Virus record (IMG/VR): IMGVR_UViG_3300032167_000098
Span: 1 to 64,000 of that record
Length of the DNA: 64,000 bases
Reading direction: 5' to 3' (one strand)
DNA from: an uncultured virus (IMG/VR IMGVR_UViG_3300032167_000098)
Taxonomy: Duplodnaviria; Heunggongvirae; Uroviricota; Caudoviricetes
Shown here: positions 180 to 64,000 of the stretch, one piece after another
How the letters are laid out: every line of letters starts with the position of its first letter
Numbering within the stretch: the first letter of the stretch is position 1
The notes under the pieces: generated by a model
Seen by the model: the letters and a program-made list of their open reading frames with translations, nothing else
Told to the model about the DNA's origin: nothing
The model's database searches: none
Position numbers and translations under genes: made by a program

Positions 180-623
180 TCAACATTTTGCAGTGTAAGT
201 TGCATATGAATCGGCATTTTCTCTTAATCTCATCTCTGTTACAACTACTCCAGGTGAGTATGCATCTAAAGTAGCTTGCAACTGCAATGCTATTTGTTCG
301 CATATAGTTTCAGCACTTACTACACTGCTATACGCCTTTGTGGGAACACCTAATCCGTCAAATGTAGCTGCGACGGATTGTGCTTGTAGATCTTTGTGAT
401 AGTATAAAAATGTATGATTTGGAACACATGCGCTTAAGTGAGCGCGCAGCATCTTGAATTCATATACAAGTGATGACGCATCGGACTGCAACGTGTTCTG
501 AACTGTAGCTTCAACTAAATATCGACAGCCTTGTAACATGTACTTATGAGATAAGATATCTTGTACTAGATACACACAGTCAAACTCTATTCGTTGTGTA
601 ACTGTATTATTTTTTGTGATCAT
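180..623 (-). CDS. Degenerate QueD/PTPS-like T-fold protein
   Basis: Motif order matches QueD (FDCVY~FxAAH; LQGCRYLVEATV~HGHxYxVEVxV; LVYEF~MVxDF; NHTFL~DHxxL; SAETI~TAENI; RENADSYATY~ETxxSxAxY), but the Zn-binding His residues are lost. Start chosen at the ATG with a GGAGG RBS. Confidence 0.55.
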   Translation of the reverse strand: MITKNNTVTQRIEFDCVYLVQDILSHKYMLQGCRYLVEATVQNTLQSDASSLVYEFKMLRAHLSACVPNHTFLYYHKDLQAQSVAATFDGLGVPTKAYSSVVSAETICEQIALQLQATLDAYSPGVVVTEMRLRENADSYATYTAKC

Positions 624-1125
624 AGCTGACCTCCAGCGCATGTAATCCAGATATCGTACCACACCAATATTGATCTGCAGGATTATCTACAGATGTTATA
701 ACATATATTCCATTTGATGTGCAATGTAACGCAAGCGGTACATCATCAATCTCAAATCCGCCTATATAGTCGTTATCGTCTAACGGTACGATTTGATCAG
801 GATGCTGTCTTAACATATTGTATTTATCACTCAACAGATCGTCTATTAACTCATGTTTGCGTCTGTTCTTTGTCGATACACTGAGCAATGGTAAATGTGA
901 GTTATCTATCATAAACTGAATCAGCAAACATATCGCACCTAATACTCCAACACAGACGGCACCTCCGATCCATGTCATAACACTTGTATCCGATGTCATC
1001 TCGGATAAAGTAATTTCTCCGGACTGGAATTTCTGTTCCTCAGTATCAATACGCAGTACAACAAACAGTGCACATAAGATAGCAGCTATTATGAATACAA
1101 TTCCCACAACTTTAAATATTTTCAT
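607..1125 (-). CDS. Hypothetical membrane protein (two TM segments)
   Basis: 172-aa ORF with two hydrophobic stretches and a GGGAG RBS. Confidence 0.6.
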   Translation of the reverse strand: MKIFKVVGIVFIIAAILCALFVVLRIDTEEQKFQSGEITLSEMTSDTSVMTWIGGAVCVGVLGAICLLIQFMIDNSHLPLLSVSTKNRRKHELIDDLLSDKYNMLRQHPDQIVPLDDNDYIGGFEIDDVPLALHCTSNGIYVITSVDNPADQYWCGTISGLHALEVSYDHKK

Positions 1126-12059: not shown

Positions 12060-12878
12060 TTATAAAAGGTCCATCATTTGTTGACCGGCAGTGGTTTGAT
12101 TGCGTAGCTGCTGCGTTTGAGAGATATTAAGACTCAATTCAGGATGTTCGTTGTAACATCGTTGAATCCAGTATGTCTCTCTGTTCAGCAAGTTCTCCGT
12201 CAACGAAACTATCTCGATTATCTCAAACAAATAATCTGTAATATTATCGACCGGGAAGCGATCCGTTTTCATGTGCTCTGCCCATCTGAACATAGGCATA
12301 TATTTTGTTTGGCCTACATAAAACTCTCGTGTAGATTTCTTTGTTATCTTATATATGTATCCAGCTATTTTTGATGTGAACATATCGCGTGTAACAAAGA
12401 ACTCACTGTCATCTTCTGGTTTCAATTTGAGTTTTTCGTCATACTTGTATTGATCTTTACACTTTGTGCAACAGAACCGCTTGTATTTGTAGTCCTGAAT
12501 ATTGTAGAAATCATGACGAATCTCATAGTCCTCAAAGGCGATAGGCCTGCTGTAATATGTGGTCACATGTGCGTGACAGTTATCGCATTCAAACTCAATT
12601 CGGTTGAAATATCGCTCAGTTGTAAAGCAATGTTCCCCGATTATGATGCAATACATATCGCCGGGCTGAAGTTTCTTGCTGTATGCAAAAGGAATATTAC
12701 CGTATGTATCTCGTATTATAGATTTAAATTGATCTCGACTGTCGCACACTATCACATCCATCAATAACTCGATGTTAGATCCCTTACTAGCACTTGAGTA
12801 AAATCCAAAGGCGATCTCATCAGTTGACGAGATCGGCTCTTCAGGCACTTGATAGATTCTGTATATTATTTCAAGCAT
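12060..12878 (-). CDS. GIY-YIG nuclease-domain protein with Zn-finger
   Basis: GYIYKIT...FYVGQT...RWAEH...ETYWI, preceded by CDNC...FCCTKC. Confidence 0.75.
   Translation of the reverse strand: MLEIIYRIYQVPEEPISSTDEIAFGFYSSASKGSNIELLMDVIVCDSRDQFKSIIRDTYGNIPFAYSKKLQPGDMYCIIIGEHCFTTERYFNRIEFECDNCHAHVTTYYSRPIAFEDYEIRHDFYNIQDYKYKRFCCTKCKDQYKYDEKLKLKPEDDSEFFVTRDMFTSKIAGYIYKITKKSTREFYVGQTKYMPMFRWAEHMKTDRFPVDNITDYLFEIIEIVSLTENLLNRETYWIQRCYNEHPELSLNISQTQQLRNQTTAGQQMMDLL
12061..12070 (-). promoter_or_regulatory. Class L phage promoter motif (A)ACCTTnTATA (representative copy)
   Basis: The motif recurs at 12061, 18263, 21975, 22856, 23623, 30723, 34692, 52364, 54994, 58283 and 61680, with variants at 60935 and 63260. 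Copies lie upstream of tail, holin and leader-bearing genes. Confidence 0.7.
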
Positions 12879-14791: not shown

Positions 14792-14827
14792 CTTGTAAAC
14801 TCCTTCTCTTGAAGAATTGATTTATTT

Positions 14828-14895
14828 TACAAGTATATTATAAGCCCTTCTGATTAAATCAGTATTATATATTTATTAAATTTTTATAAATTTTA
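14828..14895 (-). promoter_or_regulatory. 68-bp conserved AT-rich promoter element, copy 1 (class E)
   Basis: Near-identical to 45019-45086 and 54525-54592. Contains TATAAT, a CTGATTnAATCAG-type palindrome and a long AT tract. Confidence 0.75.
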
Positions 14896-14910
14896 AAGAT
14901 CAATACATAG

Positions 14911-14941: not shown

Positions 14942-16414
14942 TCATATTACTCTATTGAGTGCTTTATCATACGACCAAGGCTGTATTTGTTCAAATGCAT
15001 GTGCAATAGCAAACACATCTTCATCTTGATACTGCTTTCCGATGATCTGCATCCCTACCGGAAGCCCATCGTTTGTCATACCTGCCGGAACAGATGCAGC
15101 TGGATATCCGACGAAGTTGACCAGGGGTGTTTCGGCAAATGCAATGAATCCTATATTTGGATCAATTGCAACTCCGTCTACTTCCTTTACACATCCGTTG
15201 TCTTCATTGCGAAGCGGCGGACATATTGATGTCGGAGAGACGATTGCGTAATATCCTTGATCAAATACATCTTCAAAGTTGTCAAGAATATCTGTCCGAA
15301 TCTCATTGAACGTGCGCATGCTGTGAATATCAGTATCATATGCGATTTTATTGAATTTTATAAACTCTTCTGGTAGCTCATCTCTGTGATCCTTAACCAG
15401 ATCGAGTCCTTGACCTCTCCATAACTCTAAGTCGAGAGCGGTATCAAGCGATATTGACCATGCCCAGCAATACATTATACTGTATGCGGGAAACTTGAAG
15501 TTGAAATTGACGAAGTCTACGTGTGCTCCAGCTTCTTCAAGTCGTTTAGCTGCATTGAATACTATTTCACGAACTTCACTATCCGTTGAGAAAAGATTGA
15601 AGTCATATGTAAATGCGATCTTCTTTCCCTTGATCGGCTTCTTCATCAACTCTAAGAAATCCTTATTGTTGTTGATCGGAAGACTGATCGGATCTCTCGG
15701 ATTGTATCTCGCCATTCCGTTGAGCATCTGCGCGCTATCTTCAACTGTTTTTGTAAGTGCACCATTGAAACAATATGGATGTGTAGCTGACCAACCATCT
15801 GGCCTACAGTAACTTGGAATAGTTCCCAGCGATGCTTTGAAGCCGAAAAGATTGCACCAGCCTGCGGGAATTCGTATAGATCCACCTGCATCTCCACCTT
15901 CCCCAAGAAGAATGAGACCGTCTGCAACAGCTGCTGCGGTACCGCCAGAAGATCCACCTGACGTTCTTCCGGTATCAAATGGATTCTTAGTAGCACCATA
16001 CATCTTGTTGATGCAAGCTCCACTGAATCCAAATGCCGGCGCATTTGTTTTTCCTACCGCTATAGCACCAAATTCTTTTGCAGCGGTGTAAAACATAGAA
16101 TCTGCATCGTCAACTGCAACGAGTGATTTTACGCCGCCGTGAGAATTTGTCCACCCCTTCTTAGATGGTAAGAAATCTTTAAGGGCAACAGGAACTCCAG
16201 CAAAAGGTCCACAGTATTCTCCTGACTGAATACGCTTTTCCAGCTGACGTGCTTCCTCCATTGCATCCTCAATCTTTGTGTAGGTAAATGCATTGATTGA
16301 CGGATTTCTAGCTTGTATGCGTTCTGCAAAGTAGTTGATTACTTCCGTAGGTGAAACTTGTTTAGTGTTAACAAGCTCACCTAACTGTACTCCGGATAAT
16401 CTTTCCAGCTCCAT
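14942..16414 (-). CDS. Amidase-signature family enzyme
   Basis: GVPVALKD (Lys), GKTN, GGSSGG, GDAGGSIRIPA and GLPVGMQIIG; the Ser-cisSer-Lys triad is intact. Confidence 0.92.
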   Translation of the reverse strand: MELERLSGVQLGELVNTKQVSPTEVINYFAERIQARNPSINAFTYTKIEDAMEEARQLEKRIQSGEYCGPFAGVPVALKDFLPSKKGWTNSHGGVKSLVAVDDADSMFYTAAKEFGAIAVGKTNAPAFGFSGACINKMYGATKNPFDTGRTSGGSSGGTAAAVADGLILLGEGGDAGGSIRIPAGWCNLFGFKASLGTIPSYCRPDGWSATHPYCFNGALTKTVEDSAQMLNGMARYNPRDPISLPINNNKDFLELMKKPIKGKKIAFTYDFNLFSTDSEVREIVFNAAKRLEEAGAHVDFVNFNFKFPAYSIMYCWAWSISLDTALDLELWRGQGLDLVKDHRDELPEEFIKFNKIAYDTDIHSMRTFNEIRTDILDNFEDVFDQGYYAIVSPTSICPPLRNEDNGCVKEVDGVAIDPNIGFIAFAETPLVNFVGYPAASVPAGMTNDGLPVGMQIIGKQYQDEDVFAIAHAFEQIQPWSYDKALNRVI

Positions 16415-16417
16415 AGA

Positions 16418-17155
16418 TTACACCTTCACATTGTATTTGTTGAGATATTCCGCACCGACATCTTCTTTCTTCCACTTCCTCGCTATCTTGTAGCCTAAAG
16501 GGGAGAAGATGGCTTCTATAGCGAGTTCCAAAAGCATCATCAAGAATGAACATACAAACACCTGCTGAATTGTCCATCCAAAGAAGATGAATGATACAAA
16601 CAATGCAAATATGAAGTTATCTACAAACTGACCGGCAGCTGTTGAAATGAAACTTCTTACAGCAAATCCGCCGAAAGTATCTTTCTTGTCAACAAGTTTA
16701 CCTATCCCTTTGTTGACAAGAGAATTAACTAGACCTCCAAGGAACATCGCCGCCGCTGAACCGACAACTACATACCATGTTGATGCAAACGTGGAATCCA
16801 GCGCAGCGTTGATAGCAGCACTGATTTCAGGGGTTGCTCCGGCATAACTAGATGCCCAGATTCCGGGAATAGAAACAATTGCAGCATATAGAAGTGCAGT
16901 AAGCAAACTTATTATTGTTGCAATTGTGTTGAGTATGGTTGCAGCTTTTGGTCCAAAGCGTTTGCAAACTGCATCCATACACAGAAATGATATCCATGAA
17001 ACAAATATGCCTGCAGTCGATGCTAACCACGGAAGGTTGAAAATCGACTTGTTGGCCAGTAAATTCATGGATATCACGGATAGAATGAATACTGCTGTTA
17101 CGATACCTGGTATCGCTCTCATAGTGTCTTTGACTTGTGTTAACAATTTCTTCAT
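16418..17155 (-). CDS. YhhQ/VUT-family (queuosine-precursor transporter-like) membrane protein
   Basis: NLLANK, SFLCMD....FG...A and RSFISTAAGQFVDNFIF motifs; ~6 TM segments; GGAGG RBS. Confidence 0.8.
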   Translation of the reverse strand: MKKLLTQVKDTMRAIPGIVTAVFILSVISMNLLANKSIFNLPWLASTAGIFVSWISFLCMDAVCKRFGPKAATILNTIATIISLLTALLYAAIVSIPGIWASSYAGATPEISAAINAALDSTFASTWYVVVGSAAAMFLGGLVNSLVNKGIGKLVDKKDTFGGFAVRSFISTAAGQFVDNFIFALFVSFIFFGWTIQQVFVCSFLMMLLELAIEAIFSPLGYKIARKWKKEDVGAEYLNKYNVKV

Positions 17156-17162
17156 GTTAACT

Positions 17163-17217
17163 ACCTCCATTATTTTTATTTTAAGACGGGCTGTCAGGAT
17201 GTTACAAAACCGTCTTA
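17163..17217 (-). promoter_or_regulatory. Candidate preQ1-I-like riboswitch
   Basis: UAAGACGG-20-nt loop ending in C-CCGUCUUA, then AAAUAAAAAUAAU-GGAGG. The loop's ACAUCC can pair with the SD, and the element is directly upstream of the YhhQ-like gene. Confidence 0.4.
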
Positions 17218-17236
17218 TTTGCATTCTTCGTATTGA

Positions 17237-39369: not shown

Positions 39370-39442
39370 TGGAAGGAACGGTAGGAGTCGAACCTACTTA
39401 AGTCAGTAGCGCTACTTCTGACTCTTGTCCGAAATCATCCCC
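39370..39442 (-). ncRNA. D-arm-less tRNA-like RNA with CCA
   Basis: Acceptor GGGGAUG/CGUUCCU, T-arm GUAGG-UUCGACU-CCUAC, no D-stem, and a 6-bp stem with an 11-nt loop in place of the anticodon arm. Confidence 0.65.
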
Positions 39443-39459
39443 ATATGAATGTTGGCATC

Positions 39460-41284: not shown

Positions 41285-41647
41285 TTACTTATCTAAATGA
41301 CACTTATAATGTTCACTGTGATCATATATGAGTGTTGGATCATCCCTTAAGCCGAATTCTGTTTTAATTCGAGGAATAAAGTTCTCAGAAATGTTCGGGT
41401 TCATATAGATAACAGCTCTGCCCTTGTTGTCGATATCAACACGGCCTCTTGGATAGTATTTGAAATTGTGTTTGCAGCCTTTCGGCTTGACGTAGGGCCA
41501 CAGTCTTTCGTGATTGTATGTGTTGCCGGACTTTGCGATTCCCTCGGTGTAATCATCTTCTACAAACGGGAACGCTAACAGCTCGTCATCTACTATCCAG
41601 AACACGCCGCGTCTCGTTTCTTTTGCAGCTGTTATCAATCTTTTCAT
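41285..41647 (-). CDS. Hypothetical protein with leader MKRLITAA
   Basis: 120 aa; contains GVFW, H..LW, YYPRGRV and D.S.HY.C. Confidence 0.7.
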   Translation of the reverse strand: MKRLITAAKETRRGVFWIVDDELLAFPFVEDDYTEGIAKSGNTYNHERLWPYVKPKGCKHNFKYYPRGRVDIDNKGRAVIYMNPNISENFIPRIKTEFGLRDDPTLIYDHSEHYKCHLDK

Positions 41648-42097
41648 AAGTTACGTCTTTCTCAATTTAAACACAATCAAATCATCTCAAGGCTACCACT
41701 CCGCATCTACTCGCAAGCTCTAAATAAGATACTCACTTGCTCCTAGCTCGAAAGCTTTTCCTACCTCCTCGAAGTTGGGCTGATATTTCGCCTACAGACC
41801 AGTTCTCTTAAGAGTTTACAACCGTGTCTCCCTTCGGTGAGCTCTTTCTTTCTCATCAATTCGGACTCTCGATCTCTGACCTTCGCTTACTATATAAACC
41901 TCGAGATGATTAACCACGGAACTTTTCACGCCTGCTCCTGCATCGTAGGTAGCATCCGTTTCAATTCTATAAACCCCAGCGTAGGGTGGCAATATATTTT
42001 GACATGCCGTACTCGTGCTACGCACATACCAGTGAATTTACGGTATATATCATTTCAACCGAAGGCTTCACCCTGCTAACTTAATGGGACTAATCCC

Positions 42098-42171
42098 TGG
42101 AGCAGATACGGAGAATCGAACTCCGACGATGAGATTGGAAATCTCAGGTTCTACCATTAAACTACATCTGC
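42098..42171 (-). tRNA. tRNA-Gly(UCC)
   Basis: Cloverleaf; UGAGA-UUUCCAA-UCUCA; U73 and CCA encoded. Confidence 0.9.
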
Positions 42172-42311
42172 ATATTGAATCTGAAGAAAGAATATAAGTT
42201 ATTCCTAATCAACACAACGACTATTAAAACGCACGTGCTCACGATGTATTATATAGGTTTCTCAAAGCCACTCTGCAGAGTGATATTTTTCGTCTCTCAA
42301 TCTTCAGATTT

Positions 42312-42439
42312 TGGTGCACTCTACAAGATTCGAACTTGTCTAAACTGTCTGTAGCTTCTTCTACATATCAGCTCTTAGTTTCAGGCATCAAGAAGTATTG
42401 CCTTAGACCTTAGTGTTCTTCCAAATGAACTAAGAGTGC
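42312..42439 (-). ncRNA. 128-nt tRNA-like RNA with an expanded anticodon domain
   Basis: Acceptor GCACUCU/AGAGUGC, D-arm GUUC/GAAC, T-arm ACAAG-UUCGAAU-CUUGU and ACCA end, with ~75 nt between the D and T arms. Confidence 0.75.
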
Positions 42440-42701
42440 AGAATTGAGCCTCAGGGCGTCCCCATGTTGGCTCAGTGACAGTTGTGGTGTTCAGTCACTT
42501 CGAGTCAGTAGACTGTCAACTACTTAGCACAACTTTTAAGGATGAAGTTTGTGCCTTATCATAACCGCCCGTGTCGTAGGTCGCCCGCCACCTTTTTTGA
42601 ACATGAGGCATGGAAGCTTCCTCAGCTAACAATGAGAGTCTAACTCATGTCTTCACCCCGAAGGGTCGCACTCCACGTTGTGCTATGTTAGCATATTAAG
42701 T

Positions 42702-42841
42702 TGATGCAGGTAAGGATTTCCACCTTACATGAGCAAGTCTAAGTACACGATTTGACATTTTGTGGAATTACACCTCTACGGGTACCGCAATCTTACTATC
42801 TCTACTCTTGTTCAAGCGTCTACGTATTCCGCCACTGCATC
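42702..42841 (-). ncRNA. 140-nt tRNA-Leu-like RNA with an expanded anticodon domain
   Basis: Acceptor GAUGCAG/CUGCAUC, Leu-type D-arm GGCGGAAUACGUAGACGC, T-arm GUAAGG-UGGAAAU-CCUUAC, and an insert closed by UGAACAAG/CUUGCUCA. Confidence 0.7.
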
Positions 42842-42947
42842 TGAGAGCCTAGACCTATATCACTCTCCGGTCCTCTGCAAGCTCTTTGAGGACTTTATCC
42901 GTTTCTGCGCGCATCCGACGAATACACTCGGACATTTCTAAATTGAA

Positions 42948-43068
42948 TTGTAGGCTGTTCATCAAACTCCATTTAACATGTACTGCTGCTCTATCCGATT
43001 TACGCTCAGGAACCTCCTGCATCTCGTCAAATACCGCTTACGATTCGGAAGCTTCGTAGCACCTACAA
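42948..43068 (-). ncRNA. Unknown ncRNA family, copy B
   Basis: UUGUAGG-UGCUACGAAGC...GCAGCAGU...UUAAAUGGAGUUUGAUGAACAG-CCUACAA. Confidence 0.7.
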
Positions 43069-43232
43069 CTCTTGTTGTTTCTTCCCTGTGTCGTAGAGAA
43101 CACACGCCTTTCACTGTAGTAGAAAAAGTAATTACTGCACGCTCGATTCTACCGTACTGACATAACGACCAAAAATGTTATGGAAATTTATTGGATCTCA
43201 GTAACTTGGAACGTCATTACCGAGAAGCGGTC

Positions 43233-43307
43233 TGGCTGAGGTAGCTGGATTTGAACCAGCGATGCAGGAGTCAAAGTCCTGTGTCTTGACCACTTGACTA
43301 TACCCCA
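43233..43307 (-). tRNA. tRNA-Gln(UUG)
   Basis: Cloverleaf with U1-A72; CAGGA-CUUUGAC-UCCUG; CCA encoded. Confidence 0.9.
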
Positions 43308-43326
43308 ATATTTTGCAAGATTATAA

Positions 43327-43502
43327 TGGTTGTGAAGGTTGGACTTGAACCAACTTAATAACGTGCCTACATGTTATCGGCGTTGTGATTTCAATCACTT
43401 CAAGAAGCAGTTTCTTACCTTACTCGAGATATTCTCAGTCTTACTTCTAACGTTGTCAGCGGAACATGCACCCGCCCGACTCGACCCTTCGCCTTCTTCA
43501 CT
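43327..43502 (-). ncRNA. 176-nt RNA with tRNA acceptor/T-arm/CCA and a ~140-nt non-tRNA body
   Basis: GUGAAG/CUUCAC acceptor, GUUGG-UUCAAGU-CCAAC T-arm and ACCA end; body closed by GGCG/CGCC. Confidence 0.65.
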
Positions 43503-43517
43503 ATATCTTTTTAAACT

Positions 43518-43586
43518 AGGATTGTGTGAGAGTCGAACTCACTCCTGCAGTTTCTGAGGCTGCTGTGCGCCGTACACCATCGCTCC
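43518..43586 (-). pseudogene. Degenerate tRNA (CAG anticodon, mispaired acceptor stem)
   Basis: Intact T-arm GUGAG-UUCGACU-CUCAC, short D-arm, loop CUCAGAA, three acceptor-stem mismatches and no CCA. Confidence 0.5.
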
Positions 43587-43656
43587 ATATAGATTGTACT
43601 TTCTTACTTACGTAGAAGAAACTTTTAAGAAGACGGATACATACTAAAAGCTTAAT

Positions 43657-44808
43657 ATGGAGTTGGCAGTCTTTCCCACTGACTGCCTGAGACTCTATCT
43701 CTCATCACAGTCCTCTGTCACATTACTGTGCTCTTCGGCTTTTACCTCCACTAACGGAGGCGAGAGTCTCCCTGACATCCTTAGTACTTGCACAATCTGG
43801 CTTCACTTAATAGGAACATCGCTACGTTTCAGGTATAAGTACCAACAGCTTCGCCTCCCTCCGCAGGGACTTCCTCTGGACTCAGACCAGACTTTCCACC
43901 ATTGAATACATACGATGCTATTCCATGTCGCATCCTATTTAAGTATATCGGAGTTTCACCGACACCTTACGAGAATCCGAACCCACCAATTCTCTGAGTA
44001 CTACTGGCTCGCTTTAGTAATGCGATGCCTGACTGTTCCGAAGTTCGTCCGCAACTGTCTGAGTTTAACGGGCTATTTCTCCTTACTGAATCCTGAGACT
44101 CGGATTGATTACCGAGGAGAGATTCAACGGCTCTTTTTGTGCCGAAGTCTCTATTAACCTTCGGCTAAATTCCTCTCTTCGAAAATCTCTGCGCAGATAA
44201 GAGGAATACTTTAGGATGTAGTGGCAACCTCACTTTACTATAATCCACTACGTTACTCGAAGTACCTCTCCGAATTTTTCGGCTTTCGCTAATCCAGTCT
44301 TACAACCTCGTACCTATTTACGGAGATACGCTGACCGAAGGTTTTAGTTAGAATAAGTGTAGCACCAACCTCATTTGTGAAACTTGCTACCTACGGAGAT
44401 ACTTTTGCGCATTTCACGCATCCATCACCGTTCTTAGATCACTATCGTGTCTAAAGGTTGTTGATCTTAACTGGTACCTGAACCCACGAGTACCTTGGCG
44501 TTGTTGCACGCGTGTCCATCATTCAAGATATAACGGGCGACGTCCTTCCCGATCACGTATCATCGCTTTGATCAGAAGCGACTTCGAGATCAGCACCACT
44601 ATTCATCTGAGGTAGATTTAATTCATCAACCACTTATCTGACTCTACGACCTTGTACTTCGGTGGTCATGCACCTTCAGATCTCACTTTATTTCGAGCCT
44701 GTGAGCAGGACTTGGTGTGGAGAGCCTTTCTGTAGATACTTTCATGTGACTTTTTCACCTTTAGAGCGTACTCGCGAATACGACATCTTCAAGCTTCTCT
44801 AACTCCAC
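43657..44808 (-). ncRNA. Candidate giant (~1.15 kb) structured non-coding RNA
   Basis: No - strand ORF in the track. The ends pair (GUGGAGUU/AACUCCAU), there are many nested long-range helices, and it starts right after the tRNA-Leu CCA. Confidence 0.65.
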
Positions 44809-44892
44809 TGGTGCACCTGGAGAGACTTGAACTCTCACCCATCTTGGACTGGACCCTAAAACCAGCGCGTCTGCCATTTCCGCCACAGATGC
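44809..44892 (-). tRNA. tRNA-Leu(UAG)
   Basis: Class II cloverleaf with a long variable arm; loop UUUAGGG; A73 and CCA encoded. Confidence 0.88.
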
Positions 44893-44899
44893 ATGTATT

Positions 44900-45008
44900 A
44901 TATCAGGCTGTTCATCCCACTCCATTTACCACTGCTGCTGCGTCCATTTACTCCGTTCCAGAAAGCTATTAAGGCGATCTGCGGTATAGGCTTCGTGGCA
45001 CCTGATAT
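44900..45008 (-). ncRNA. Unknown ncRNA family, copy A
   Basis: AUAUCAGG-UGCCACGAAGC...GCAGCAGUGGUAAAUGGAGUGGGAUGAACAG-CCUGAUAU. Confidence 0.7.
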
Positions 45009-45018
45009 ATTTGATTTT

Positions 45019-45086
45019 TACAAGTATATTATAAGCCCTACTGATTATGTCAGTATTATATATTTATTAAATTTTTATAAATTTTA
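45019..45086 (-). promoter_or_regulatory. 68-bp class E promoter element, copy 2 (heads the RNA array)
   Basis: Near-identical to 14828-14895. Confidence 0.75.
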
Positions 45087-45124
45087 GAGATAAATACTAA
45101 TAAAATCTGTATCTTTCTCAATTA

Positions 45125-45313
45125 TTAAAGGTCCAACGCAGATCTGATTGATGTCAATTGATTCTCAAATTCTTTCTGATACTTATCTCGTAAACAATTA
45201 AGTTCAGAAATGTACTGTGATCTTAATTCTTTGAATATGTCCATGGAATGTTTAAGTTCAACTGCTTTTTGAATCACTTCCGAATCGCATCCGATGATCT
45301 TGTATTCTGCCAC
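45125..45313 (-). CDS. Small hypothetical protein
   Basis: GTG start with an AGGAG RBS. Confidence 0.55.
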   Translation of the reverse strand: MAEYKIIGCDSEVIQKAVELKHSMDIFKELRSQYISELNCLRDKYQKEFENQLTSIRSALDL

Positions 45314-54524: not shown

Positions 54525-54592
54525 TACAAGTATATTATAAGTCCATATGATTATATCAGTATTATATATTTATTAAATTTTTATAAATTTTA
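54525..54592 (-). promoter_or_regulatory. 68-bp class E promoter element, copy 3
   Basis: Near-identical to 14828-14895 and 45019-45086. Confidence 0.75.
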
Positions 54593-54664
54593 GAAATCAA
54601 AACATAGAAAAAGCGTCTGATGCAAGAACATCAAACGCTCGAAAGAGAGGTATAATAATGAGAA

Positions 54665-63762: not shown

Positions 63763-64000
63763 TCAGTTGAGAACAACTAATTTGTTTTTGTGAGCTTGTA
63801 ATTCTGAGCGAATCGCTTCAAGTTCGGCATTTGCTTCGCTGAGTAACGCTTCACCGTTGAGAGATACATTAGAACCTTCGACAGTGTACTTACTGCGGCT
63901 ATGCCCTTGTGCTAACTTCATGTTAGCTACACTCATTCTTACAAGATAATCTATCCAAGTATCTGAAACAATTTCAGAAACATCTTGAAGATCTGGCACA
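63763..64000 (-). CDS. 3' end of a neck/head-completion protein (T4 gp13-like), truncated
   Basis: G..RSKY....NVSLNGEALLSEANAELEAIRSEL resembles the C-termini of myovirus neck proteins. Confidence 0.5.
   Translation of the reverse strand, partial: VPDLQDVSEIVSDTWIDYLVRMSVANMKLAQGHSRSKYTVEGSNVSLNGEALLSEANAELEAIRSELQAHKNKLVVLN

What the first reader, a model, noticed from the sequence alone, without database searches (positions are those of the whole stretch)
42312..43502. tRNA scaffolds carrying large cargo domains in place of the anticodon arm
Seen: three RNAs keep the acceptor stem and T-arm but replace the anticodon region with structured inserts of ~75-140 nt. They are 42312-42439 (intact D-arm, CCA), 42702-42841 (Leu-type D-arm, altered T-loop) and 43327-43502 (no D-arm, CCA). 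The inserts are too short for self-splicing group I introns and do not resemble each other. In the first RNA, CUAAG-GU-CUA would put CUA at the anticodon position if the insert were excised; this is speculative. Inference: tRNA mimics that get RNase P/CCA processing and stability while displaying a functional domain, for example decoys against anticodon nucleases or synthetase/T-box ligands, or intron-containing tRNAs that need an unknown splicing route.
Basis: partly seen in the sequence, partly recalled or inferred. Interest (0 to 1): 0.82.

Follow-up and report, generated by a model that had tools for sequence, protein, structure and literature searches.

The report
Anticodon-less tRNA look-alikes in phage operon
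A large gut phage carries, among its ordinary tRNA genes, several genes that keep the top of a tRNA but have long unrelated sequence where the decoding part should be; they are real but of unknown use, like two old unexplained RNAs of phage T4.

Summary
The window is part of a 144-kb myovirus-like phage, probably of gut Clostridia. All genes and tRNAs lie on the minus strand. A 3.5-kb ORF-poor stretch (41648-45124) is a tRNA operon.

The three RNAs are real tRNA derivatives. A strict acceptor-plus-T-arm scan gives 10 hits there against 0.1 in shuffles. The description needs correcting:
- RNA3 does have a D-arm and an anticodon-arm-like hairpin. Its ~100-nt insert sits in the variable region.
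- The inserts fold no better than shuffles (z -1.4, -0.1, -0.3).
- More such elements exist, including a 68-nt one with a UUCG hairpin in place of the anticodon arm (42625-42692).

The intron reading is weak. ARAGORN's "tRNA(CUA) with intron" call recurs in 254 of 400 interior shuffles. The phage has no RtcB, Rnl2-type ligase or splicing endonuclease.

No homologues, RNA data or variant alleles were found. The choice between non-decoding tRNA-derived RNAs (favoured; closest known are T4 RNAC/RNAD) and decaying duplicates therefore stays open.

This scan has flagged similar tRNA-shaped RNAs in other phages before, and has examined other RNAs of this same phage.

The parts
42312..42439 (-). RNA1: a tRNA-shaped gene. 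It has a perfect acceptor, D-arm and T-arm and an encoded ACCA. About 75 nt of non-tRNA sequence (42339-42413) replace the anticodon arm and variable loop.
   Evidence: Sequence reading. Strict scans. Fold (z -2.21). No Rfam hit at E<=5. ARAGORN -i call shown to be uninformative.
42625..42692 (-). RNA4, not in the original finding: a 68-nt tRNA-like gene. Acceptor GCUAACA/UGUUAGC, D-arm GCAC-AACGUGGA-GUGC, T-arm AUGAG-UUAGACU-CUCAU, no CCA. The anticodon arm is replaced by the 4-bp hairpin ACCC-UUCG-GGGU.
   Evidence: Strict scan. Fold: all 20 stem pairs are Watson-Crick. Not called by ARAGORN or Rfam.
42702..42841 (-). RNA2: a diverged paralogue of the phage tRNA-Leu. Acceptor 7/7, 6-bp T-stem with loop UGGAAAU, D-loop without GG, 87-nt interior (42729-42815), no CCA.
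   Evidence: (D5). Fold (z -1.02). Interior z -0.09.
43327..43502 (-). RNA3: a near-complete cloverleaf. Acceptor 6/7 with A1.A72, a 3-bp D-arm, a hairpin GCGGG-UGCAUGU-UCCGC at 43459-43475, T-arm and ACCA. A ~104-nt insert (43355-43458) sits in the variable region.
   Evidence: The only one of 181 relaxed candidates with an in-register anticodon-type hairpin. Its 3' end is 73% like tRNA-Gln (D4).
43518..43586 (-). Marginal tRNA: a good T-arm, but the acceptor pairs at only 4 of 7 positions and the anticodon-arm loop is about 9 nt.
   Evidence: Rfam RF00005 at 29.6 bits against a cut-off of 29. Not called by ARAGORN. Fold z +0.79. Pairing read.
42098..42171 (-). Canonical tRNA-Gly(UCC).
43233..43307 (-). 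Canonical tRNA-Gln(UUG), 19 nt downstream of RNA3.
44809..44892 (-). Canonical tRNA-Leu(UAG), first gene of the operon and the paralogue of RNA2's 5' part.
45010..45097 (-). An ~82-nt AT-rich module heading the operon. It is repeated at window 14825-14906, at 54525-54594 and at L040:6533-6613. Each of the other copies lies just upstream of a minus-strand ORF. It is inferred to be a promoter/leader module.
   Evidence: blastn within the genome at 93-98% identity. Promoter-like hexamers.
44893..44931 (-). Promoter-like module (TGaTATAAT-ACAT) abutting tRNA-Leu. Partial copies lie at 42952-42978 (111 nt upstream of RNA2) and at 42244-42273 (72 nt upstream of tRNA-Gly).
   Evidence: Repeat families D2 (89%) and D3 (70%). 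Exact TATAATACAT occurs 3 times, all on the minus strand in the tRNA region.
39373..39443 (-). A further tRNA relic: T-arm GUAGG-UUCGACU-CCUAC plus UCCA, with a poorly paired 5' strand.
   Evidence: Rfam tRNA-Sec at 20.5 bits, E=2.

Best explanation
These are non-decoding tRNA-derived RNA genes inside the phage's tRNA operon.

They arose from tRNA genes. RNA2 came from a tRNA-Leu-type gene together with its promoter-like upstream module. RNA3 came from a CAU-type tRNA. RNA1's source is not identified.

They have kept the acceptor/T-arm 'top half', and in RNA1 the whole elbow. The decoding half has been replaced, expanded or capped.

Inferred mechanism:
- They are transcribed with the tRNAs, from the repeated promoter module at about 45.0-45.1 kb and from internal TATAAT-ACAT modules.
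- The retained top half lets host RNase P cut the 5' end. The 3' end is trimmed, with CCA encoded in RNA1 and RNA3.
- They would then accumulate as stable small RNAs, as T4 RNAC/RNAD do.

What they do afterwards is not shown. They may act in trans on a host factor that reads the tRNA top half.

Shown: the anatomy, the paralogy and the excess over chance. Inferred: transcription, processing, stability and any trans-acting role.
For: (1) Top-half modules are about 100-fold enriched over shuffles in the region.

(2) The helices are intact although the sequences are far from any paralogue.
- RNA1 has 16/16 Watson-Crick stem pairs plus U8, A14, G18G19 and the UUCGAAU loop.
- RNA2's acceptor 5' strand matches tRNA-Leu at only 3 of 7 aligned positions, yet pairs 7/7. 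Its D-arm region stays 80% identical to tRNA-Leu.
- RNA4 has 20/20 pairs and a cUUCGg tetraloop exactly where the anticodon arm should be. That looks like a capped arm, not a random deletion.

(3) The leader ..AUAU directly precedes the 5' end of canonical Gly and Gln and also of RNA3, RNA4 and the marginal tRNA.

(4) RNA1 and RNA3 encode ACCA, as 4 of the 6 canonical tRNAs encode CCA.

(5) The operon is headed by a module repeated before three protein operons, and promoter-like TATAAT-ACAT modules precede tRNA-Leu, RNA2 and tRNA-Gly.

(6) GC of the ORF-free stretch is 0.43, against 0.34 for other intergenic DNA and 0.39 for coding DNA.

(7) The closest relative found, L011, has a solitary 130-nt tRNA-like gene (68% amino-acid identity in the neighbouring ORF).
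- It has a canonical T-arm and a D-arm.
- Its acceptor is identical to RNA2's at 6 of 7 positions.
- It has a promoter-like TTGATT/TATAAT pair upstream, read from the sequence.
- Its fold z is -2.9.
- No tRNA lies near it.

(8) Precedent: T4 rnaC (139 nt) carries a canonical T-arm next to its 3' end in the T4 tRNA cluster. The roles of RNAC and RNAD are unknown (PMC3014915, passage read).
Against: - No homologue of any of the three was found. Searches covered the deposited-phage collection, one IMG/VR pattern scan with RNA1's 5' part, which found only the phage itself, and 44 fetched related loci. There is therefore no covariation.
- The interiors fold no better than shuffles, and sliding-window z-scores in the region are no lower than in the coding flanks.
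- The same region holds clearly damaged relics: the marginal tRNA with a 4/7 acceptor and the relic at 39373-39443. A decay series is therefore plausible.
- RNA3 has an A.A first pair and G33. RNA2 has lost G18G19 and U55C56 and has no CCA. RNA4 has A56.
- There is no expression evidence of any kind.
Confidence: 0.45

Rival explanations
1. They are decaying duplicates. Tandem or dispersed copies of tRNA genes were hit by insertions or replacements in the lower half and are now functionless. Their intact stems reflect youth, not selection.
For: - There is a graded series of damage in one region: the marginal tRNA (4/7 acceptor), the relic at 39373-39443, RNA3's A.A pair and G33, and RNA2's and RNA4's altered elbow bases.
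- The inserts have no thermodynamic signal.
- No related locus conserves them.
- Odd tRNA genes are common in the related phages: 2-base 'anticodon' calls and 6-nt anticodon loops.
Against: - RNA2's acceptor 5' strand matches its Leu paralogue at only 3 of 7 aligned positions, and its T-stem is also different, yet both stems pair perfectly. With four or more acceptor pairs changed, keeping them all Watson-Crick by chance is about 0.25 per changed pair (inference).
- RNA4's exact cUUCGg cap.
- RNA1 has no remnant of anticodon-stem halves flanking its interior, as a recent insertion would leave.
- The GC content is above intergenic DNA.
- Phage genomes are usually compact (general knowledge).
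Confidence: 0.28
2. They are intron-containing tRNA genes of the kind reported in Lak megaphages. The insert is removed by an unknown route to give a working tRNA. For RNA1 this would be an amber suppressor with anticodon CUA.
For: - ARAGORN with introns calls RNA1 tRNA(CUA) with a 36-nt intron at 37/38.
- Lak phages have tRNAs with unexplained introns, some defined by intron-less alleles (bioRxiv 10.1101/356790, passages read).
- TAG is the rarest stop: 4 of 72 minus-strand ORFs of 80 aa or more.
Against: - Shuffled-interior control: 254 of 400 are still called intron-tRNAs, 7 with CTA.
- The called anticodon stem has an A.G mismatch and the variable arm has only two pairs.
- RNA2 and RNA3 get no intron call.
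- No group I intron hit.
- No RtcB, Rnl2-type ligase or EndA in the phage. The Rnl1 search was uninformative because its control was silent.
- ORFs are long and dense under the standard code, and reading TAG as sense opens nothing in the region.
- No insert-less allele in 4 DNA runs.
Confidence: 0.08
3. They are cis-acting processing punctuation only. The tRNA-like top halves serve as RNase P / 3'-end cut sites that release the neighbouring non-coding RNAs (for example the 1.2-kb stretch 43587-44808 and the 42440-42624 and 42842-43232 spacers). The excised tRNA-like pieces themselves have no role.
For: - The elements alternate with GC-rich ORF-free spacers of 185-1222 nt.
- Only the top half, the part RNase P needs by established knowledge, is kept.
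- The interiors show no fold signal.
Against: - Canonical tRNAs already punctuate the same transcript.
- RNA2 and RNA4 are only 9 nt apart, and RNA3 and tRNA-Gln 19 nt apart, so they release nothing between them.
- RNA1 keeps a full D-arm and elbow, which a mere cut site would not need.
Confidence: 0.12

Closest known systems
Phage T4 small stable RNAs RNAC (species 1, rnaC, 139 nt) and RNAD (rnaD, 119 nt)
   Same: - They lie in the phage tRNA cluster on the tRNA strand.
- rnaC has a canonical T-arm CCGGG-UUCGAAU-CCCGG followed by 9 nt at its 3' end. Its 5' and 3' ends can pair imperfectly, and it has a ~100-nt non-tRNA interior.
- Their roles are unknown (PMC3014915, passage read).
   Different: - No sequence similarity: no T4-type hit.
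- T4 rnaC folds far better than shuffles (z -4.57), whereas these interiors do not.
- RNA1 keeps a full D-arm and elbow, and RNA3 keeps an anticodon-type arm.
- Here there are at least four such genes, interleaved with the tRNAs rather than placed at the end of the array.
'Enigmatic' introns in tRNA genes of Lak megaphages (Devoto et al., bioRxiv 10.1101/356790; later Nature Microbiology 2019, journal recalled)
   Same: Over-long tRNA-like genes in large gut phages, with inserts that match no Rfam family and no known splicing route.
   Different: - Lak inserts were placed by a eukaryote-mode tRNA finder, and in one case by alleles with and without the insert. An isotype and an anticodon could be named.
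- Here no insert-less allele exists.
- Only RNA1 gets an intron call, and that call is at chance level.
- RNA3's insert is in the variable region.
tmRNA tRNA-like domain and Y-RNA-like YrlA
   Same: Bacterial and phage RNAs that keep the acceptor/T-arm mimicry but carry another domain in place of the anticodon arm (established knowledge).
   Different: - ARAGORN finds no tmRNA.
- Rfam gives no tmRNA hit, and only a 21.4-bit YrlA match (cut-off 69) at another place.
- None of RNA1-4 has G3.U70; they have A-U, U-A, U-A and U-A, read.
- The Pfam scans found no Ro/TROVE protein.
Stand-alone 130-nt tRNA-like gene of the related phage contig, L011:12787-12916
   Same: Same size class, with a D-arm, a canonical T-arm and a ~75-nt interior. 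Its acceptor UAUGCAG/CUGCAUA is identical to RNA2's at 6 of 7 positions.
   Different: - The interior shows no similarity to RNA1 or RNA2.
- It stands alone, with a promoter-like TTGATT/TATAAT pair upstream (read), between protein genes and with no tRNAs near.
- Homology is not established.
- One pattern scan of IMG/VR found no relative.

Membership tests
Canonical tRNA (Rfam RF00005) | Scores at or above the 29-bit gathering threshold of the tRNA covariance model | tested here: not met
   RNA1, RNA2, RNA3 and RNA4 give no tRNA match even at E<=5. The seven matches are the six canonical tRNAs and 43518-43586.
Canonical tRNA (Rfam RF00005) | A 5-bp anticodon stem with a 7-nt loop (U33, R37) in register after the D-arm | tested here: not met
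   RNA1 and RNA2 have no in-register hairpin. RNA4 has a 4-bp stem with a UUCG loop. RNA3 has the hairpin, but its loop is UGCAUGU, with G33.
Intron-containing tRNA (Lak-type, archaeal bulge-helix-bulge, or group I in the anticodon loop) | Removing one insert leaves a canonical cloverleaf with a defined anticodon | tested here: inconclusive
   ARAGORN -i calls only RNA1 (CUA, 36-nt intron). The same call type occurs in 254 of 400 interior shuffles. RNA2 and RNA3 are not called.
Intron-containing tRNA (Lak-type, archaeal bulge-helix-bulge, or group I in the anticodon loop) | A recognisable self-splicing intron core, or splicing enzymes (endonuclease plus ligase) available | tested here: not met
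   There is no group I or II intron match. PF01139 RtcB, PF09414 RNA ligase and PF01974 endonuclease each score 0 of 1 in the 144-kb phage. The PF09511 control was silent, so says nothing. The host's enzymes cannot be tested here.
Intron-containing tRNA (Lak-type, archaeal bulge-helix-bulge, or group I in the anticodon loop) | Alleles or relatives without the insert that define the exon junction | tested here: not met
   Four DNA runs carry pieces identical to the window and no joint that removes an insert. No homologue was found in 44 related loci.
T4 RNAC-type stable RNA of phage tRNA clusters | Encoded within the phage tRNA gene cluster on the tRNA strand | tested here: met
   for this phage. 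for T4.
T4 RNAC-type stable RNA of phage tRNA clusters | A T-arm next to the 3' end, with the 5' and 3' ends paired, around a long non-tRNA interior | tested here: met
   for RNA1-4.
T4 RNAC-type stable RNA of phage tRNA clusters | Sequence homology to T4 rnaC or rnaD | tested here: not met
   blastn of 42312-43232 and of RNA3 against 50,697 phage records gave no T4-type hit.
T4 RNAC-type stable RNA of phage tRNA clusters | Accumulates as a discrete stable RNA during infection | not testable with these tools
   No RNA run holds the sequence.
tmRNA | A tRNA-Ala-like domain (G3.U70) plus a tag reading frame and pseudoknots | tested here: not met
   ARAGORN -m finds none in the contig. There is no Rfam tmRNA hit. 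Pair 3:70 is A-U or U-A in all four.

The most novel reading that the evidence does not exclude
The operon may be a battery of non-decoding tRNA mimics, each built on a different tRNA body. They would be matured like tRNAs and would titrate or mislead host factors that read the tRNA top half or elbow. Candidates are tRNA-directed defence nucleases or transferases, and processing enzymes.

The boldest piece concerns RNA3. Its body carries marks that I recall as typical of bacterial initiator tRNA:
- a mismatched 1:72 pair;
- purine 11 paired with pyrimidine 24;
- a G29-G31 run in the anticodon stem;
- anticodon CAU;
- A73.

On this reading RNA3 would be an initiator-tRNA-derived RNA with a ~100-nt arm pointing away from the decoding face, aimed at initiation factors or the formyltransferase.

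These marks were read from the sequence and checked by no tool. G33 and G37 argue against decoding.
Probability: 0.12. Interest if true: 0.75.

Novelty: new variant of a known kind. Interest (0 to 1): 0.42.

Why it matters
Phage tRNA clusters have held unexplained tRNA-like RNAs since T4's RNAC and RNAD. Metagenomic phages show many over-long 'tRNAs' that are filed as intron-bearing or pseudo.

This locus has, in one operon, at least four different ways of keeping the tRNA top half while removing decoding:
- a replaced anticodon arm (RNA1);
- a long irregular arm (RNA2);
- a giant variable region (RNA3);
- a UUCG-capped stub (RNA4).

If these RNAs accumulate, they would argue that phages use the tRNA top half as a general maturation and stability handle. 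They would also be a tractable set for asking what such RNAs bind.

If they do not accumulate, the locus is a record of how phage tRNA arrays turn over. It also shows that intron-mode tRNA finders will 'find' an intron-tRNA in any such scaffold (64% of shuffles).

Tried and rejected
Expression:
- No RNA holder is listed among 13 runs, so neither splicing nor accumulation could be tested.

Population variation:
- Four DNA runs were laid on the region. The listed pieces over the region have 0 or 1 differing letters, so there are no variants to use.
- The only joint near the elements (42977 to 43973) has a 26-letter side and fits the D2 repeat. I did not interpret it.

Homologue searches that found nothing useful:
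- blastn against the phage collection.
- blastn against 44 related loci. The only matches were short: three for RNA3 (a 31-nt T-arm match and two 21-nt matches), and 28 nt for RNA1 and 15 nt for RNA2.
- IMG/VR pattern scans for RNA1's 5' part, which found only the phage itself, and for the L011 element, which found nothing.
- Neighbour-protein searches in IMG/VR, metagenomes and genomes gave no relative closer than 68% amino-acid identity.

Alternative genetic codes:
- Reading TAG, TGA or TAA as sense opens no long frame in the region.

Thermodynamics:
- A sliding 150-nt z-score does not set the region apart from the coding flanks.

Other origins and identities considered:
- Mobile-element origin of the inserts: no second copy in the 144-kb genome.
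- attP-type tRNA 3' fragments: rejected. No integrase or recombinase family appeared in the Pfam scans, and the elements sit inside a tRNA array.
- tmRNA, Y RNA and group I intron: no matches.
- A relaxed acceptor/D-arm scan proved too noisy to find more members in relatives.

Literature:
- A search for phage, tRNA-like, noncanonical tRNA, anticodon and decoy listed 6 papers, none on this subject (listing only).
- Supplementary Table S6 of the Lak preprint, which holds the intron sequences, could not be seen because bioRxiv supplements are closed.

Coverage gap:
- Nine ORFs of the contig beyond window position 64000 were not scanned against Pfam. The six-frame family searches did cover them.
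Full report
**Setting.** The window belongs to a single 73-kb contig. That contig is identical to the second half of a 144,269-bp IMG/VR phage record, G001, rated 96% complete.
- Nearly all ORFs lie on the minus strand.
- Pfam and PHROGs show a T4-like major capsid and portal, baseplate parts, primase, DnaB-type helicase, family A polymerase, NAD ligase and an SbcC-like protein.
- They also show RecU, a Hol44 holin, a SleB-type hydrolase and CHAP.
- Relatives of the neighbouring 120-aa ORF sit in Lachnospiraceae, Ruminococcus, Oscillospiraceae, Eubacterium and Oribacterium genomes.
- From these I infer that the host is a gut or rumen member of the Clostridia.

**The region.** Between the ORFs ending at 41647 and 45125 no frame of 100 aa is open, and none opens if TAG, TGA or TAA is read as sense.
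- ARAGORN and Rfam find tRNA-Gly, tRNA-Gln and tRNA-Leu there, plus a marginal tRNA at 43518-43586 (29.6 bits).
- Pro, Thr and Asn lie just downstream at 39.2-40.6 kb.
- The whole phage has only these seven Rfam tRNA matches.

**Checking the observation.** Read on the minus strand, RNA1 is as described:
- a 7/7 acceptor;
- U8-A9 and a 4-bp D-arm whose loop keeps G18G19;
- a canonical T-arm and ACCA;
- about 75 nt in between, with no anticodon stem in register.

RNA2 has a 7/7 acceptor, a 6-bp T-stem with loop UGGAAAU and no CCA. Its D-arm region is 80% identical to the phage's own tRNA-Leu (D5).

RNA3 has a genuine T-arm and ACCA, but its first acceptor pair is A.A. Aligning it with the adjacent tRNA-Gln shows a 3-bp D-arm (GGC/GUC, loop with GGG). 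This is followed in register by a hairpin GCGGG-UGCAUGU-UCCGC. Its ~104-nt insert is therefore in the variable region, not the anticodon arm.

**Is this more than chance?** I wrote a strict scan: a 5-bp T-stem, loop T..RA.., then a 7-bp acceptor with no mismatch lying 25-320 nt upstream.
- In the 3.7-kb region it gives 10 hits, for six elements counted in one or two registers: Leu, Gln, Gly, RNA1, RNA2 and a new 68-nt element.
- In 200 shuffles the mean is 0.1 and the maximum 3.
- The rest of the 73-kb contig gives one odd hit on the minus strand and four on the plus strand; Asn and Thr are also hit.

RNA3 passes only relaxed rules, and these are noisy, giving 181 configurations over all held DNA. 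RNA3 is the only one of the 181 with an in-register anticodon-type hairpin.

- RNA4 (42625-42692) has a perfect acceptor, D-arm and T-arm, 20/20 Watson-Crick pairs in all. A 4-bp hairpin capped by UUCG stands where the anticodon arm should be.
- The marginal tRNA has only 4 of 7 acceptor pairs.
- A further T-arm plus UCCA relic lies at 39373-39443.

**The inserts.**
- Interior-only folds are not better than dinucleotide shuffles: z -1.40 (18/200), -0.09 (83/200) and -0.28 (76/200).
- For the whole molecules z is -2.21, -1.02 and -1.08.
- A sliding window shows nothing special against the coding flanks.
- The inserts have no second copy in the phage and no Rfam match at E<=5.
- 'Structured cargo domains' is therefore not supported. 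It is not excluded either, because such z-scores are weak tests.

**Intron reading.** ARAGORN with introns calls RNA1 tRNA(CUA) with a 36-nt intron. The stem it draws has an A.G mismatch, and the variable arm has only two pairs.
- As a control I shuffled the 75-nt interior 400 times. ARAGORN still called a full-length intron-tRNA in 254 cases, 7 of them with CTA. The call carries no information.
- RNA2 and RNA3 get no call.
- TAG ends 4 of 72 minus-strand ORFs of 80 aa or more. ORFs are long and dense under the standard code, so there is no recoding for a suppressor to serve.
- Six-frame searches of the 144-kb record find no RtcB, no Rnl2-type RNA ligase and no splicing endonuclease. The Rnl1 search is void because its control rang nowhere.
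- Pfam on 144 ORFs finds none of these either.
- No group I intron is found.

**Origin.** RNA2 shares the D-arm region with tRNA-Leu. It also shares a 27-nt upstream module at 89% identity (D2), which in the Leu copy runs into TGaTATAAT-ACAT. A third partial copy precedes tRNA-Gly (D3). The exact 10-mer TATAATACAT occurs three times in the window, all on the minus strand in the tRNA region.
- RNA2's acceptor and T stems differ from Leu's yet pair perfectly. This points to selection on pairing, or to a chimeric origin, rather than to simple decay.
- RNA3's 3' end is 73% like that of the adjacent tRNA-Gln (D4).
- No tRNA in any fetched locus is a clear source for RNA1 or RNA4.
- The leader ..AUAU directly precedes Gly, Gln, RNA3, RNA4 and the marginal tRNA.

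**Transcription, inferred.** An ~82-nt AT-rich module at 45010-45097 recurs three more times in the phage at 93-98% identity. Each other copy lies just upstream of a minus-strand ORF. It probably carries the promoter that heads the operon. The simple terminator scan found none on the minus strand.

**Relatives.** No close relative exists in the collections. The best is 68% amino-acid identity in the neighbouring ORF. None of the 44 related loci has a blastn match to the elements beyond short matches of 15-31 nt.

The closest relative, L011, has a solitary 130-nt tRNA-like gene.
- It has a D-arm and a canonical T-arm.
- Its acceptor is identical to RNA2's at 6 of 7 positions.
- It has a promoter-like TTGATT/TATAAT pair upstream, read from the sequence.
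- Its fold z is -2.9 (1/200).
- No tRNA lies nearby.
- Homology to RNA2 is not established.

More distant relatives (L007, L008, L024) carry a 68-nt element with a shortened anticodon arm at the end of their tRNA arrays, as well as other odd tRNAs.

**Data that could not be had.** No RNA run holds the sequence. Four DNA runs hold pieces of the region with 0 or 1 differing letters and no insert-less form.

**What is known.**
- T4's tRNA cluster ends with rnaC and rnaD. rnaC has a canonical T-arm 9 nt from its 3' end and a strongly folded interior (z -4.57).
- A T4 review states that the roles of RNAC and RNAD are unknown (PMC3014915, passage read).
- Lak megaphages have tRNAs with unexplained introns (bioRxiv 10.1101/356790, passages read).
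- One literature search for phage tRNA-like decoys listed nothing relevant.

**Earlier notes of this scan.** They describe similar tRNA-shaped RNAs with inserts in other phages. For this same phage they describe a large RNA after tRNA-Leu and RNA cassettes after tRNA-Asn. I used them as leads only.

**Verdict.** The elements are real tRNA derivatives that cannot decode in the normal way.
- I favour non-decoding tRNA-derived RNAs matured through their retained top half, the T4 RNAC kind (0.45).
- Next comes decay of duplicated tRNA genes (0.28).
- Then pure processing punctuation (0.12).
- Last, intron-bearing tRNAs (0.08).

The claims of folded cargo and of a CUA suppressor are not supported.

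Noticed in passing
window 43587-44808 (minus strand): A 1.2-kb ORF-free stretch directly after tRNA-Leu. Its GC is 0.45, and it has many UUCG/GNRA-capped hairpins. It has no Rfam match at E<=5 and no blastn match in the phage collection.
   Followed up: partly
window 45010-45097; 14825-14906; 54525-54594; L040:6533-6613: An ~82-nt AT-rich module repeated four times in the phage at 93-98% identity. Three copies lie just upstream of minus-strand ORFs and one heads the tRNA operon. It is probably a phage promoter/leader module.
   Followed up: partly
L011:12787-12916: A solitary 130-nt tRNA-like gene in the closest relative found. It has a promoter-like TTGATT/TATAAT pair upstream, a fold z of -2.9, and no tRNAs nearby. 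Its acceptor is 6/7 identical to RNA2's.
   Followed up: partly
L007:14082-14149 (also L008:15015-15082 and L024:14082-14149); L007:8023-8117: Related phages carry a 68-nt tRNA-like element with a 4-bp, 5-nt-loop stub in place of the anticodon arm and no CCA, placed at the end of their tRNA array. They also carry a 95-nt long-arm tRNA-like gene with a 6-nt anticodon loop.
   Followed up: partly
L042:10452-11702 and L042:12050-13447 (G001, outside the window): The family A DNA polymerase is split into two minus-strand ORFs separated by about 350 nt and not in frame. Rfam finds no group I intron there at gathering score.
   Followed up: no
L042:6153-8498; L041:18632-19810; L042:1779-2141; window 12060-12878: Selfish elements: an intein in a clamp-loader subunit, two HNH/NUMOD4 endonuclease genes and a GIY-YIG domain protein.
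   Followed up: no
L041:3000-3905 and L041:4119-4352: A reverse transcriptase gene with an RT-2 RNA motif (Rfam RF03077, 102 bits) just upstream of it.
   Followed up: no
window 180-662; 14942-16414; 16418-17224: A PTPS/QueD-like protein, a 490-aa amidase-family protein (PF01425, E 5e-86) and a Vut_1 (YhhQ-type) transporter. These may belong to 7-deazaguanine or tRNA-related metabolism.
   Followed up: no
window 45125-45313 (minus) and 42855-43022 (minus): Two small ORFs inside the 'ORF-free' stretch. The 62-aa one has a Shine-Dalgarno-like AGGAG and looks protein-like. The 55-aa one (35 aa from its internal start) lies upstream of RNA2 and ends in TAG.
   Followed up: no
window 42977 to 43973 (runs X2 and X6): One contig in each of two DNA runs joins these places, skipping 995 nt that hold RNA3 and tRNA-Gln. 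It differs from the window at 44004-44043. The short side is only 26 letters and matches a repeat, so this may be a relative or an artefact.
   Followed up: no
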